IMG/VR virus record: IMGVR_UViG_2778261642_000012
Span: 1 to 20,069 of that record
Origin: a virus
Taxonomy: Duplodnaviria; Heunggongvirae; Uroviricota; Caudoviricetes
DNA length: 20,069 bases
Strand: one strand, 5' to 3'
Shown here piece after piece: positions 14,401 to 17,400 of this stretch (position 1 is its first letter; every line of letters begins with the position of its first letter). Position numbers: made by a program.

Positions 14401-17400
14401 AATATTGCCAGGAGCTTAGGTGTTGATATTGCTGATCTCTTTACCTCAGACCTCAAAAGTAATACTGTATGTAAAAACAGTATTAGTGAGGATGTTGCGC
14501 AGGTGAAGGATGTATTCCGTATTGAAATGCTGGATGTCAGTGCCAGTGCGGGAAATGGCCTTATCCAGGGCGGTGATGTCATTGATGTGATTCATGCCAT
14601 TGAATACAGAACTGATAATGCTGTATCGATGTTTGGTGGACGACCAGCAAATCACATTAAAGTTATCAACGTTCGTGGGGACAGTATGTGTCCAACCATT
14701 GAGCCAGGAGATCTCATCTTCGTTGATATCAGTATCAATCAGTTTGATGGGGATGGTATATATGTATTTGGTTTTGATGATAAAATTTACGTCAAACGAC
14801 TGCAAATGATACCTGATAAACTGCTGGTAATTTCTGATAATCAGATTTACCGCGAATGGGGAATTACCAGCGAAAACGAACACCGGTTTATGGTCTTTGG
14901 AAAGGTCTTAATCAGTCAGTCACAGACCCTTAAGCGACACAATTAACCCCCTACCTCAACATCAATTAGCCACCAGAAGGTGGCTTTTCATTACCTACCA
15001 AATTGCATATCTCGCAACAAAACACTTGCATAATGCGCAACTTCATTTTATCTTTCTTTCCAGACCTACAAACAAGGTACTAACAAAATTTGGTTGTAAC
15101 ACGGCGTATGGCACATGCGTCGTTAGCGGTCTGGGGACGTTAAAGGGGACAATCCACTCCTTGCTCGGGCAAACAAACCAGGTAGCCGGAATGTGCAAGT
15201 CAATGATGATGCTGATAAGACGCCTAACCAGCGCGGCGATCCGGTTTGACGCCTGGGAAGAGACCAGGGTGCAACGATGAGGGCATTTATGGAACCGCGA
15301 CAAAGTGTGGTGCCGTAACTGGCTAAGTGCTCTCAGCGTTGTGGTAATCCGCGAAATGGCGCGGCGGTAAGTATGGCGGGGTTACTCTTTCCCCGTTGAG
15401 GACACCGGATTGTCAGGCTGACCATACGCCTGAGTGACAATCCCGCCACAACAGCCACTGCTTTGGCGGTACCAGTTTGTACACTTGCTTCCGGCTGGTA
15501 CCGCTCTTTTTACAAAACAGAGAAGAGCATCACCGGACGACGGGCTCATAACCCAATCCATCCGGGCGGCTGTCACCGCAGGTGTTCTTCTCTGTTTTGT
15601 GGAGAAACTAACCGACCTTGCAGGGTCGATATGATGAGGAGCAGCAAAATGGCTAGCGAACGCAGTACTGATGTGCAGGCATTTATCGGGGAGCTGGACG
15701 GCGGCGTATTTGAAACCAAAATCGGCGCAGTTCTCAGTGAAGTCGCTTCCGGTGTGATGAACACGAAAACCAAAGGTAAGGTCTCACTCAACCTGGAAAT
15801 CGAACCGTTTGATGAGAACCGTGTGAAAATAAAACATAAACTCTCATATGTTCGCCCGACTAACCGCGGGAAAATTTCCGAAGAAGACACCACCGAAACG
15901 CCGATGTATGTCAATCGCGGTGGTCGCCTGACTATTCTGCAGGAAGACCAGGGACAATTACTGACTCTTGCCGGTGAACCTGACGGAAAACTCCGCGCAG
16001 CAGGTCATTAATATCGTTTTTAATTAACTGATTATTTATCTCATCACTGAATATTTTATATAGTGAGGACTGATTATGTCTCAGAACTTAGACGCAACCG
16101 CAATTAATCAAATCCATGCCCTTATTTCTGCTCAGGGTGTTAATGAAATTATCAGTAAGATTGGTGCCGATGCTGTGGCATTGCCTGAGAATTTCCGCAT
16201 TCATGATCTGGAAAAATTTAATTTAAATCGTTTCCGTTTCCGTGGTGCGCTTTCCACTGCCAGCATCGATGACTTTACCCGTTATTCTAAAGATCTTGCA
16301 GATGAAGGCACCCGCTGCTTTATCGATGCCGATAATATGCGTGCCGTCAGTGTGCTTAACCTGGGTACTATTGATGAACCAGGTCACGCAGATAACACCG
16401 CCACTCTCAAACTGAAAAAGACAGCACCGTTCTCTGCTCTGTTGTCTGTTAATGGCGAGCGTAACTCCCAGAAGTCACTGGCAGAATGGATTGAAGACTG
16501 GGCCGACTACCTTGTGGGCTTTGATGCTAATGGTGACACCATTCAGGCAACCAAAGCGGCTGCGGCAGTCCGTAAAATCACAATTGAAGCAAACCAGACC
16601 GCTGATTTTGAAGACAATGACTTCAGCGGCAAACGCTCCCTGATGGAGTCTGTCGAAGCGAAAACCAAAGACATTATGCCAGTGGCATTTGAATTTAAAT
16701 GCGTTCCGTTTGAAGGCCTGAAAGAACGTCCGTTTAAATTACGCCTCAGCATTATCACTGGCGATCGTCCTGTACTGGTTCTGCGCATTATTCAGCTGGA
16801 AGCGATGCAGGAAGAAATGGCTAACGAATTTCGTGATCTGCTTGTTGAGAAATTCAAAGACAGCAAAGTAGAAACCTTTATTGGTACTTTCACCGCCTGA
16901 TTTCATTACTGCAAATGCCCCTGCGGGGGCATTTATGGAAACGTAATTAACTCAATAATCACCGGATGGTGAGAGCTTCCTTTTAGCAGAATTCAGCGCG
17001 GTGCAGCGCATATAAAGTGGAGAACGAAATGTCATTTATTAAAACTTTTTCTGGGAAGCATTTTTATTATGACAAGATAAATAAAGACGACATCGTGATT
17101 AACGATATCGCAGTTTCCCTTTCAAATATCTGTCGCTTTGCAGGACATCTTTCACACTTCTACAGCGTCGCCCAGCATGCGGTGCTTTGCAGCCAGCTGG
17201 TACCGCAGGAATTTGCTTTTGAAGCGTTAATGCATGATGCAACAGAAGCATATTGCCAGGACATCCCCGCTCCACTGAAACGCCTTCTTCCTGACTATAA
17301 ACGGATGGAAGAAAAAATAGATGCCGTAATCCGTGAGAAATACGGGTTACCCCCGGTTATGAGCACGCCTGTGAAATATGCCGATCTCATCATGCTGGCA

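What the first reader, a model, noticed from the sequence alone, without database searches (positions are those of the whole stretch)
15041..15648. Long (~600-nt) pL leader with a boxA-like motif and extended hairpin but no N-like ORF
Downstream of OL/pL there is no Arg-rich N-type antiterminator; the first convincing gene starts at 15649. The leader contains CGCTCTTTTTACA (boxA-like) followed by a ~13-bp-stem hairpin and a U-tract. This fits a host-factor-only or RNA-based (HK022 put-like) antitermination or processive-attenuation element, or an sRNA.
Basis: partly seen in the sequence, partly recalled or inferred. Interest (0 to 1): 0.5.

Follow-up and report, generated by a model that had tools for sequence, protein, structure and literature searches.

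The report
Non-coding RNA array ending in DicF-type sRNA
The 600-base "leader" after the prophage repressor gene is a chain of conserved folded RNA modules: one is a DicF-family small RNA already detected experimentally as sRNA-17, and one is a widespread, unannotated structured RNA of unknown function.

Summary
The window is an E. coli mEp460/SfV-type lambdoid prophage. The stretch 15041-15648 really has no gene and no N-like ORF. It is built from four conserved RNA modules.

- **Module A/B (15088-15340)** is a pseudoknotted RNA followed by a long closing hairpin. It has strong covariation and no Rfam match. It occurs in about a third of complete E. coli genomes, in P1's ban operon and in epsilon15-like phages.
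- **Module C (15338-15452)** is homologous to the 5' part of the 190-nt DicF precursor of the Qin prophage.
- **A DicF-family hairpin and intrinsic terminator (15465-15511)** follows. Its last 65 nt are identical to the 3' end of the published sRNA-17.
- **A conserved 25-bp hairpin (15507-15605)** follows, then a small hairpin and the yfdP ribosome-binding site.

The "U-tract" after the long hairpin is base-paired inside its stem.

The sRNA reading is supported. Neither put homology nor a nut site is supported. Whether module A helps RNA polymerase read through the terminator is open.

The parts
14254..14946 (+). CI-type (HTH + S24 peptidase) prophage repressor gene, followed by a terminator-like hairpin at 14968-14985
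   Evidence: RefSeq annotation; PHROG transcriptional repressor / CI-like hits; terminator scan
15003..15040 (.). Two operator-like sites TTGCATATCTCGCAA and TTGCATAATGCGCAA (OL). pL presumably overlaps them. The exact transcription start is not determined and lies before about 15081, where homology to phages of other immunity types begins.
   Evidence: exact matches here and at 14219-14233 on the other side of the repressor gene; homology of other-immunity phages starts at window 15082. The consensus promoter scan does not call pL.
15088..15271 (+). Module A, a conserved structured RNA. P1: 15102-15110 with 15114-15122. P2 base: 15130-15133 with 15179-15182. Invariant GGUAGCCGGAAUGUGCAAG: 15181-15199. 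P4: 15220-15223 with 15231-15234. Pseudoknot: 15226-15229 with 15243-15246. P5: 15252-15256 with 15264-15268, loop GAAGAGA.
   Evidence: Alignment A2 and pair counts: 96.4% of cells paired against 28-55% when slid, 12 of 26 pairs with double changes, 0 of 500 shuffles as good. CM R1 hit at 15100-15271, 131 bits. No Rfam match.
15271..15340 (+). Module B, a hairpin closed by a 17-bp helix (15271-15288 with 15323-15340). The apical part varies in length and sequence between phages.
   Evidence: a 15-18 bp closing helix in 21 of 40 representative loci with different arm sequences (GAGAGCA/UGCUCUC, GAGCGCA/UGCGCUC, AAGGCG/CGCCGUU)
15338..15452 (+). Module C, a folded element closed by GUUGUGG/CCACAAC. 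It is homologous (88%) to the sequence immediately upstream of DicF in Qin-type prophages, which is the 5' part of the 190-nt DicF species. It occupies the slot that holds tRNA-Arg(UCU) in epsilon15-like phages.
   Evidence: 96% paired against 37-61% when slid, in 59 unique sequences. The coordinates printed are 3 too high; correct them by -3. 190-nt species: bioRxiv 10.1101/2023.04.14.536235.
15453..15519 (+). DicF-family sRNA hairpin and intrinsic terminator. Stem 15465-15477 with 15493-15505, 15-nt loop 15478-15492 (the innermost pairs are U.G wobbles), C15506, U-tract 15507-15511.
   Evidence: CM R2, built without DicF or this sRNA type: window 31.9 bits E=6e-5, Qin DicF 25.7 bits E=1.6e-3, no hits in control DNA. 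Fold. Family list.
15338..15511 (+). Predicted RNA of about 173 nt (module C + sRNA hairpin), the local counterpart of sRNA-17 (193 nt) and of the 190-nt DicF species. 15446-15510 is 100% identical to the 3' end of sRNA-17.
   Evidence: PMC7719688. In mEp460, 193 nt back from the terminator lands exactly on the first base of the module that occupies this slot.
15502..15514 (+).
15507..15605 (+). Long hairpin. A 25-bp stem (15507-15531 with 15581-15605) takes in the terminator U-tract, pairing it with the conserved GGAGAA. Apical domain 15532-15580. Candidate RNase III substrate (inferred).
   Evidence: 99.1% of stem cells paired in 13 sequences, 3 compensatory pairs. Other loci have different stem sequences with the same ends (UUUUACA...UGUGGAGAAnCUAAC).
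15613..15651 (+). Small hairpin CGACCU-UGCA-GGGUCG (15613-15628), RBS GAGGAG (15636-15641), yfdP start codon (15649-15651)
15649..16011 (+). yfdP, the first gene of the early-left operon, followed by yfdQ (DUF2303) and yfdR

Best explanation
The 'leader' is the non-coding front end of the repressor-controlled early-left operon. It is an array of self-folding RNA modules transcribed from pL on the + strand. The array delivers a DicF-family small RNA, much as the dicBF operon of the Qin prophage delivers DicF.

Shown here:
- Each module is conserved and keeps its pairing in many phages.
- Module C is the homologue of the 5' part of the 190-nt DicF precursor.
- The hairpin 15465-15505 plus the U-tract belongs to the same family as DicF.
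- It is identical to the 3' end of sRNA-17, a 193-nt RNA mapped by 5'/3' RACE and Northern blot in E. coli K1.

Inferred:
- RNA polymerase starting at pL transcribes modules A and B, then module C and the sRNA hairpin.
- A fraction of transcripts terminates at the U-tract near 15510.
- Cleavage at the B/C junction near 15338, the position of the RNase III-dependent 5' end in Qin and of the RACE 5' end of sRNA-17, releases an RNA of about 173 nt.
- This RNA probably acts on host mRNAs by base pairing through its pyrimidine-rich terminator loop and the short single-stranded segment before it. Its targets are unknown and are apparently not ftsZ.
- Transcripts that read through fold the U-tract into a 25-bp duplex with the conserved GGAGAA. 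That duplex is a likely RNase III site that separates the sRNA from the yfdP mRNA and may set yfdP translation.

Module A/B is a genuine, previously undescribed structured RNA whose role is not known. Its ends abut tRNAs or tRNA-slot modules, so it is most likely released as a separate stable RNA or serves as a processing or stability platform.
For: - **Non-coding:** no Pfam or NCBIfam hits for the leader ORFs, and the alignments contain indels that are not multiples of three.
- **Structure:** the + strand folds with z = -6.1, against -3.5 for the - strand.
- **Covariation:** module A, B, C, long hairpin.
- **Link to DicF:** Rfam DicF sits directly after the module C homologue in a Qin-type prophage. 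Most module C copies are followed by canonical DicF and about 20 by this sRNA type. The independent CM R2 hits both the window and DicF and nothing in 30 kb of E. coli chromosome, HK022 or P1.
- **sRNA-17:** 193 nt, RACE and Northern, higher in stationary phase, located in an mEp460-type prophage. Window 15446-15510 is identical to its 3' 65 nt. In mEp460 its 5' end falls exactly on the module boundary.
- **Same architecture elsewhere:** A-B-[tRNA or tRNA-slot module]-sRNA+terminator-long hairpin recurs in dozens of viral contigs.
- **Prevalence:** the sRNA core is in 1593 of 5426 E. coli genomes and module A/B in 1832 of 5426. Neither is ever annotated.
Against: - No expression data exist for this strain or for this module combination. 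sRNA-17 was mapped in a locus with a different upstream module.
- The authors of sRNA-17 attribute it to its own ArcA-controlled promoter rather than to processing of a pL transcript.
- The Rfam DicF model does not reach even E = 10 on the window.
- The DicF 5' seed is absent, and complementarity to the ftsZ start region is no better than background (49 of 60 control windows do as well).
- Double compensatory changes in module C are few (3 pairs).
- pL itself is not called by the promoter scan, so the transcription start is inferred.
- RNase III, RNase E or RNase P cleavage and Hfq binding are inferred by analogy only.
Confidence: 0.75

Rival explanations
1. Module A (or A/B) is a cis-acting RNA that makes RNA polymerase terminator-resistant. 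This would be an RNA-only processive antiterminator, analogous to but unrelated to HK022 put. It would let an N-less phage read through the sRNA terminator into yfdP and the rest of the early-left operon.
For: - No N-type protein is encoded in the window, yet an intrinsic terminator lies between pL and the first gene.
- Module A is the first conserved structured element after pL. In most loci it lies upstream of one or two terminators that precede ORFs.
- It has a long invariant single-stranded motif and a pseudoknot, typical of an RNA that binds a macromolecule.
- mEp phages, including the lambdoid mEp460 with this same leader, are described as a Nus-dependent collection.
Against: - It shows no similarity to putL or putR by CM, even with filters off, or by local alignment (44 of 500 shuffles as good).
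- There is only one copy in the window and none downstream of pR, whereas HK022 has putL and putR.
- SfV, ST64B and Qin carry the same kind of sRNA terminator in front of their early genes without module A.
- In P1, module A sits between a tRNA and ban, in the middle of an operon.
Confidence: 0.13
2. The sRNA is an independent gene with its own ArcA-repressed promoter just upstream, as proposed for sRNA-17, and is not a processing product of the pL transcript.
For: PMC7719688 reports three-fold higher sRNA-17 in an arcA mutant, lower levels under microaerobic growth, ArcA-P binding to the 'promoter' fragment in EMSA, and expression in an uninduced lysogen. A GTTA-N13-GTTA direct repeat lies at window 15122-15142.
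Against: - The RACE 5' end coincides exactly with the boundary between module B and the next module. That is the position where the Qin 190-nt DicF 5' end is RNase III-dependent, and no internal promoter was found there.
- No promoter-like site is found on the + strand within 15041-15648. This is weak evidence, because the scan also misses pL.
- The GTTA repeat lies inside conserved RNA helices of module A and is absent from most module A variants.
- The RACE protocol did not distinguish primary from processed ends, as far as the text shows.
Confidence: 0.2
3. CGCUCUUUUUACA is a functional boxA that recruits NusB/NusE and the other Nus factors for host-factor-only antitermination, as in rrn operons.
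For: It matches the established boxA consensus (rrn UGCUCUUUAACAA, lambda CGCUCUUA; general knowledge) except for two extra U residues. The mEp phage collection is described as Nus-dependent. No N protein is present.
Against: - The first four bases are paired in the terminator stem and the rest is its U-tract.
- The motif is not conserved. Other sRNA types in the family read CCGCCCUUUUU, CCGCACUUUU or CCGUCACUUUU, and SfV reads CCGUCCUUUUU with the same downstream genes.
- It lies about 450 nt from the promoter, after the structured modules.
- No boxB-like or boxC-like partner follows.
- The 13-mer is not statistically unusual.
Confidence: 0.05
4. The region is decayed coding sequence: an RdgC pseudogene as RefSeq annotates at 15485-15634, or minus-strand hypothetical ORFs as annotated in mEp460.
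For: RefSeq pseudogene call. The ORFs 15434-15634 (+) and 15382-15576 (-) hit PHROG clusters of unknown function. mEp460 annotates ORFs here.
Against: - There is no RdgC or other Pfam or NCBIfam signal.
- The PHROG clusters are only collections of predicted ORFs from the same conserved DNA.
- The ORFs span the terminator and hairpins, whose variation is compensatory at the RNA level.
- Loop-length differences between relatives break the reading frames.
Confidence: 0.02

Closest known systems
DicF sRNA and the dicBF operon of the Qin cryptic prophage (Rfam RF00039; Faubladier 1990; Balasubramanian 2016, PMC5069750; Ragunathan 2023, bioRxiv 10.1101/2023.04.14.536235)
   Same: The sRNA is embedded in the repressor-controlled early operon of a lambdoid prophage, on the same strand and upstream of small early genes. 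The ~115-nt upstream module is homologous (88%). The 5' half of the terminator hairpin is shared (UUUGGCGGUAyCAGUUU). Both have an intrinsic terminator followed by a long-range hairpin before the next ORF. One broader covariance model captures both.
   Different: The terminator loop and 3' arm are different. The DicF 5' seed UUUCUGGUGACG is missing. There is no evident ftsZ complementarity. It falls below the Rfam DicF threshold. The downstream genes are yfdP and yfdQ instead of dicB. Modules A and B lie upstream instead of ydfABC.
sRNA-17 of neonatal-meningitis E. coli RS218 (Front Microbiol 2020, PMC7719688)
   Same: The 3'-terminal 65 nt, comprising the junction, hairpin and U-tract, are identical to window 15446-15510. 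The prophage type (mEp460-like) and the position between repressor and yfdP are the same.
   Different: The 5' 128 nt of sRNA-17 are a different module (GUGGUGAAUGCGC...GCCGGAGAUCAGCACCGGUCACCACAAC), where the window has the Qin-type module C. The paper did not connect the RNA to DicF, to processing, or to the upstream modules.
HK022 putL/putR antiterminator RNAs (PMC9378689)
   Same: A structured RNA downstream of the early promoter of an N-less lambdoid phage, upstream of terminators.
   Different: There is no sequence or CM similarity. Module A is about 170 nt with a pseudoknot, against about 70 nt with two stems for put. It begins roughly 20-65 nt after any plausible transcription start rather than at +3. 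It is present as a single copy. It also occurs in P1 and in epsilon15-like phages.
Lambda nutL / N-leader region (general knowledge)
   Same: A long untranslated leader between pL and the first gene. It contains a boxA-like string and a long hairpin that, by analogy with the RNase III site in the lambda N leader, may be cleaved and affect translation of the first gene.
   Different: There is no N gene and no boxB. The boxA-like string is a terminator tail. Most of the leader consists of conserved structured modules.
GOLLD and ROOL large RNAs of prophages (general knowledge; both are in Rfam and did not match)
   Same: Large, ornate, covariation-supported RNAs of unknown function encoded in prophages directly next to tRNA genes.
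   Different: There is no sequence or model similarity. Module A/B is smaller, lives in a different host range (Enterobacteriaceae) and forms part of an sRNA-delivering array.

Membership tests
DicF (Rfam RF00039) | Match to the curated covariance model at or near the gathering score | tested here: not met
   No DicF hit in the window at the gathering score or at E<=10 on 14900-15750. The same model scores 76.7 bits on the Qin-type locus L005.
DicF-type sRNAs in the broad sense (family defined here) | UUGGCGGU...ACCGCC hairpin followed by a U-tract and ACA, recognised by a model built from other members | tested here: met
   R2, built from 14 sequences excluding DicF and the window type: window 15453-15519 at 31.9 bits (E=6e-5), DicF at 25.7 bits (E=1.6e-3), SfV 54 bits, ST64B 41 bits. 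No hits in 30 kb of E. coli chromosome, HK022 or P1.
DicF-type sRNAs in the broad sense | Embedded in a repressor-controlled early prophage operon and preceded by the precursor module of the 190-nt species | tested here: met
   Repressor, operators, leader and yfdP lie on one strand. Module C is 88% identical to the sequence just upstream of DicF.
DicF | Base pairing with the ftsZ ribosome-binding region, and the 5' seed used for xylR (PMC5069750) | tested here: not met
   Windowed duplex energy against ftsZ -60..+30 is -18.1 kcal/mol, and 49 of 60 background windows are at least as good. The DicF control recovers the published site. The 5' seed sequence is absent.
DicF | RNase E / RNase III processing and Hfq dependence | not testable with these tools
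   Known for DicF. No data exist for this RNA.
sRNA-17 (PMC7719688) | Sequence identity to the RACE-mapped 193-nt RNA | tested here: inconclusive
   The 3' 65 nt are identical. The 5' 128 nt are replaced by a non-homologous module occupying the same slot. The paper itself counts such loci as 'degenerative sRNA-17'.
HK022 put RNA | A two-stem RNA of about 70 nt homologous to putL/putR, with one copy after pL and one after pR | tested here: not met
   R1 does not hit putL or putR, even with filters off. Local alignment is not significant. There is a single module A copy in the window.
HK022 put RNA | Binds the RNAP beta' zinc-binding domain and suppresses termination without protein factors | not testable with these tools
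   Requires in vitro transcription or genetics.
Lambda-type nut site | Single-stranded boxA followed by a boxB hairpin, together with an Arg-rich N protein | tested here: not met
   The boxA-like string is the terminator arm and U-tract. A 25-bp hairpin, not a boxB, follows it. No N-like ORF is present. The motif is not conserved in relatives.
tRNA (for module C and its counterparts in that slot) | Match to the tRNA covariance model or ARAGORN | tested here: not met
   No tRNA is called in 15041-15648 or in the sRNA-17 region of mEp460 at E<=10. In other loci the same slot holds a true tRNA-Arg(UCU), and in one locus a 127-nt tRNA with an insert. The resemblance is positional and architectural only.

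The most novel reading that the evidence does not exclude
Module A/B (15088-15340) is a new class of phage RNA that acts on the transcription machinery. It would be an RNA-only antiterminator unrelated to put, and would explain how N-less but Nus-dependent mEp460-type phages, and possibly P1's ban operon and epsilon15-type morons, transcribe through the intrinsic terminators of their embedded sRNAs. Even if that specific function is wrong, it is a covariation-supported, pseudoknotted RNA family absent from Rfam. It is present in about a third of complete E. coli genomes and has no assigned function.
Probability: 0.13. Interest if true: 0.85.

Novelty: new variant of a known kind. Interest (0 to 1): 0.55.

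Why it matters
- **It explains a puzzling gap.** The untranslated stretch is accounted for without invoking a nut site.
- **It links two literatures.** sRNA-17, reported as an orphan virulence-modulating RNA of meningitis E. coli, is shown to be a DicF-family sRNA sitting on a DicF-type precursor scaffold.
- **DicF becomes one of many.** At least a dozen interchangeable 'cassettes' share the stem but carry different loops. They are shuffled among lambdoid, P1-like and epsilon15-like phages, which points to a modular way for phages to diversify sRNAs that act on the host.
- **It exposes a new RNA family.** Module A/B is an unannotated structured RNA of about 250 nt, very common in E. coli and other Enterobacteriaceae. 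It is a clear candidate for a new Rfam family and for functional study.
- **It corrects annotation.** The RefSeq 'RdgC' pseudogene here is probably spurious.

Tried and rejected
- **put homology:** CM R1 against HK022 pL/pR with default filters and with filters off, and Smith-Waterman alignment with shuffles, found nothing significant. R1 against the SfV/ST64B leader element also found nothing.
- **ftsZ as target:** an unrestricted duplexfold gave meaningless long duplexes. A windowed version showed no enrichment for the window sRNA.
- **RdgC or other coding readings:** Pfam, NCBIfam and PHROG searches gave only unknown-function ORF clusters.
- **tRNA-likeness of the slot modules:** not supported by Rfam or ARAGORN.
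- **Known prophage sRNAs:** the Pas sRNAs (bioRxiv 10.64898/2026.05.13.724894) and AgvB/AsxR (PMC4104026) are late-region or structural-region genes, not this locus.
- **Genome-contig scan with a 15-mer:** it returned mostly chance hits in unrelated phyla. Only 7 of 100 loci, all Enterobacteriaceae, passed the CM.
- **RS218 record:** it is not in the E. coli collection. The sRNA-17 sequence was taken from the paper's supplement instead.
- **P1 literature:** a search on the ban operon RNA found nothing relevant.
- **Promoter:** no promoter consensus could be assigned to pL, so the transcription start remains inferred.
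Full report
**Context.** The window matches E. coli B1W1 (NZ_CP117720) at 100%, in a lambdoid prophage of the mEp460/SfV type.
- A CI-type S24 repressor gene (14254-14946, +) faces a cro-like gene (13896-14156, -) and a cII-like gene.
- Two exact TTGCAnnnnnnGCAA sites lie at 15003-15017 and 15026-15040. A third lies at 14219-14233 on the other side of the repressor gene, consistent with OL and OR.
- The first gene downstream on the + strand is yfdP (15649-16011, RBS GAGGAG 15636-15641), followed by yfdQ (DUF2303) and yfdR.
- The consensus promoter scan calls neither pL nor any promoter on the + strand inside 15041-15648. The transcription start is therefore inferred to lie before about 15081, where homology to phages of other immunity types begins.

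**The observation.** The leader is real.
- ORFs of 20 aa or more in 15000-15660 are short, start with TTG or GTG, and are not Arg-rich. None has a Pfam or NCBIfam hit.
- Two ORFs hit PHROG clusters of unknown function. These clusters are simply ORFs predicted on the same conserved DNA.
- RefSeq's 'RdgC, missing N-terminus' pseudogene (15485-15634) has no domain support.
- CGCTCTTTTTACA is at 15502-15514, but the string alone is not unusual.
- The + strand of 15041-15648 folds at -239 kcal/mol (z = -6.1), against z = -3.5 for the - strand.
- No Rfam family matches, either at the gathering score or at E<=10.

**The region is a mosaic of modules.** Sensitive BLAST against phage records splits the leader into blocks, each shared with different and otherwise unrelated phages:

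| Window block | Shared with | Identity |
|---|---|---|
| 15088-15265 | P1, P7, D6 | 78% (P1, P7); the D6 match covers only 15088-15199, 88% |
| 15101-15344 | epsilon15-like phages (phiV10, TL-2011b) | 82% |
| 15338-15460 | Qin-type 'PPompW' prophages | 88% |
| 15464-15648 | SfV, SfII, SfIV; partly ST64B | 96% |

None of these stretches is annotated as a gene in the carefully curated records.

**Module A (15088-15271).**
- The 15-mer GGTAGCCGGAATGTG (15181) recovers at least 120 IMG/VR contigs.
- I made an alignment of 36 non-redundant copies (A2) and named a structure: P1, the base of P2, P4, a pseudoknot between the P4 loop and a downstream GGUG, and P5 with a GAAGAGA loop.
- Under that structure 96.4% of cells are paired, against 28-55% when the partners are slid by 1-3 columns. 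Twelve of 26 pairs show changes on both sides (82 cells), and 0 of 500 shuffles do as well.
- Examples: pair 7:19 is G-C in 18 sequences and A-U in 18. The pseudoknot is CACC/GGUG in 34 sequences and AACC/GGUU in the window and one relative.
- A covariance model (R1) scores 131 bits on the window at 15100-15271 and finds a single copy there.
- Of 100 loci picked up by the same 15-mer in one-genome-per-species bacterial contigs, only 7 pass R1. All are Enterobacteriaceae: Kosakonia (3 loci in two species), Phytobacter, Citrobacter, Superficieibacter and Escherichia whittamii.
- Module A/B occurs in 1832 of 5426 complete E. coli genomes, including 554 places on plasmids (P1-like), always with no annotation.

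**Module B (15271-15340).**
- This is a hairpin with a 17-bp closing helix (15271-15288 with 15323-15340).
- A 15-18 bp helix at the same position exists in 21 of 40 representative loci. The arms differ in sequence and lie 41-203 nt apart.
- Its 3' arm ends in GUUG, immediately followed by the next module.

**The slot after module B.**
- In epsilon15-like phages and several contigs this slot holds a true tRNA-Arg(UCU).
- In one contig it holds a 127-nt tRNA with an insert.
- In mEp460 and many others it holds an element of about 125 nt closed by GUGGUG/CACCAC.
- In the window it holds module C (15338-15452), closed by GUUGUGG/CCACAAC.
- These elements are not tRNAs by Rfam or ARAGORN, so the likeness is positional.
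- Module C keeps its predicted pairs in 96% of cells across 59 unique copies, against 37-61% when slid. Most variation is G-C to G-U, and three pairs show double changes, for example 15345:15445 as C-G in 49 and U-A in 8. The coordinates printed by that script are 3 too high.

**Link to DicF.**
- In the Qin-type prophage L005, Rfam DicF (76.7 bits) lies at 2633-2684, directly after the homologue of module C.
- Published work shows that DicF arises from the dicBp transcript as a 53-nt form (RNase E 5' end) and a 190-nt form whose 5' end needs RNase III. No internal promoter was found.
- Counting 190 nt back from the DicF terminator lands at the first bases of the module C homologue. The 190-nt species is therefore module C plus DicF.
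- A scan for a module C motif shows that most copies are followed by canonical DicF, about 20 by the window's sRNA, and single ones by further variants.

**The sRNA.**
- Window 15465-15477 pairs with 15493-15505 (13 bp, 15-nt loop), followed by C and UUUUU (15507-15511).
- It shares UUUGGCGGUAyCAGUUU with DicF and then diverges.
- Downstream of module A in other loci I found about a dozen types with the same ends and different loops, many of them pyrimidine-rich. The common pattern is (U)UUGGCGGU...ACCGCC(C)UUUU(U)ACA.
- A model built from 14 of these, leaving out DicF and the window type (R2), gives the following:

| Target | Score (bits) | E-value |
|---|---|---|
| SfV | 54.2 | 4.3e-10 |
| ST64B | 41.3 | 4e-07 |
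| Window 15453-15519 | 31.9 | 6e-5 |
| Qin DicF | 25.7 | 1.6e-3 |
| 30 kb of E. coli chromosome, HK022, P1 | no hit | |

- The window element and DicF therefore belong to one broader family, although the narrow Rfam model does not reach it.

**Experimental support from the literature.**
- The primary paper (PMC7719688) maps a 193-nt RNA by 5'/3' RACE and Northern blot in E. coli K1 RS218, inside an mEp460-type prophage. It has no Rfam homologue, is higher in stationary phase and in an arcA mutant, and its deletion improves survival in blood.
- The sequence in the paper's supplement shows that its 3'-terminal 65 nt are identical to window 15446-15510.
- In mEp460, 193 nt back from the U-tract is exactly the first base after module B.
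The 5' end is the module boundary.
- The paper did not note the kinship with DicF.
- The 67-nt core is present in 1593 of 5426 E. coli genomes and is never annotated.

**The long hairpin.**
- 15507-15531 pairs with 15581-15605 (25 bp). The stem includes the terminator U-tract, which pairs with the conserved GGAGAA.
- In 13 distinct copies 99.1% of stem cells are paired, with three compensatory pairs.
- Other loci have quite different stem sequences with the same ends (UUUUACA ... UGUGGAGAAnCUAAC).
- Qin has an analogous long-range hairpin between DicF and dicB.
- A small hairpin (15613-15628) precedes the yfdP RBS.
- By analogy with the RNase III site in the lambda N leader (general knowledge), I infer that RNase III cleaves this duplex in read-through transcripts. 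That would separate the sRNA from the mRNA.

**Antitermination.**
- No N-like protein is encoded in the leader or in the early-right genes within the window.
- The boxA-like string is base-paired and U-tract sequence, is followed by no boxB, and is not conserved. Only the window's sRNA type reads GCUCUUU.
- HK022 putL and putR were located in the HK022 record. My numbering agrees with the cryo-EM paper.
- R1 does not detect either put RNA even without filters, and local alignments are not significant.
- SfV, ST64B and Qin have the same type of terminator before their early genes but lack module A.
- The mEp collection is described as Nus-dependent, and how an N-less member depends on Nus factors is unexplained.
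- A functional role of module A in read-through therefore remains possible but unsupported. I put it at about 0.13.

**Target.**
- The 3' region of DicF pairs with the ftsZ ribosome-binding site.
- A windowed duplex search recovers that site for DicF. For the window sRNA it gives nothing better than background.
- The targets of sRNA-17 are unknown. glnP, fdnG and tdcG rise in the deletion mutant.

**Verdict.**
- The finding is a real non-coding region, but not a nut or boxA leader.
- It is a modular RNA array whose 3' unit is a DicF-family sRNA already seen experimentally (sRNA-17). Its 5' unit, module A/B, is a common, well-supported and undescribed structured RNA.

Noticed in passing
window 12807-12995 (-), inside ORF 12204-13355 (-): Rfam C4 antisense RNA (83.6 bits) and isrK (67.9 bits) lie inside the 383-aa ORF that RefSeq calls a 'Rha family regulator'. 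The N-terminal ~180 codons of that ORF are probably non-coding RNA upstream of a shorter ant/rha gene.
   Followed up: no
window 5332-5641 (-): A cluster of four tRNA genes (Gly-UCC, Thr-UGU, Lys-UUU, Met-CAU) lies in the late region of the prophage.
   Followed up: no
window 15485-15634 (+): The RefSeq pseudogene 'recombination-associated protein RdgC, missing N-terminus' overlaps the sRNA terminator and the long hairpin. It has no Pfam or NCBIfam support and is probably a spurious annotation.
   Followed up: yes
L129 (SfV) ~700-790; L130 (ST64B) ~940-1020: Directly after OL/pL, both phages share an element of about 70 nt (ACAGGCAGGACGCCCACGAAGUAGCCGCC...GUCCAGGAUGAUUCG) with a put-like CAGGAUGA loop. 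Its similarity to HK022 putL/putR is borderline (29-35 of 500 shuffles as good). It is absent from the window and may be a put relative.
   Followed up: partly
window 15122-15142 (+): A GTTA-N13-GTTA direct repeat (ArcA-type) lies inside module A helices P1 and P2. It may be the 'ArcA site in the sRNA-17 promoter' of PMC7719688, and it is absent from most module A variants.
   Followed up: partly
L003 (phage P1) 2496-2720: In P1's C1-controlled ban operon, module A starts 1-2 nt after the CCA end of trnI. It is followed by UUUCUGGUGAUGAC, which resembles the DicF 5' seed, just before ban. P1's separately annotated 'dicF-like region' is not detected by R2.
   Followed up: partly
L004 (O157 typing phage 10, phiV10-like) 2500-3020: In epsilon15-like phages the array (module A/B, tRNA-Arg-UCU, a DicF-type sRNA, a hairpin and a strong terminator) forms a stand-alone unit between structural-gene operons. 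It is preceded by TTGACA, a perfect -35-type hexamer, and is followed by a small ORF.
   Followed up: partly
module boundaries, e.g. window 15338-15344 and 15596-15602; many loci: The motif (G)UUGUGG recurs at the junctions between modules. It could be a processing signal or a recombination hotspot for module shuffling.
   Followed up: no
L032, L033, L075, L099 (IMG/VR contigs), downstream of module A: Some phages carry much longer arrays (over 1 kb) with extra conserved folded units, including second GAAGAGA-type hairpins, before the sRNA. This suggests a larger family of modular non-coding arrays.
   Followed up: no
mEp460 (L002) and the literature (PMC11893012): The mEp phages are described as a Nus-dependent collection, yet mEp460 carries this N-less leader. 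The basis of its Nus dependence is unexplained.
   Followed up: no
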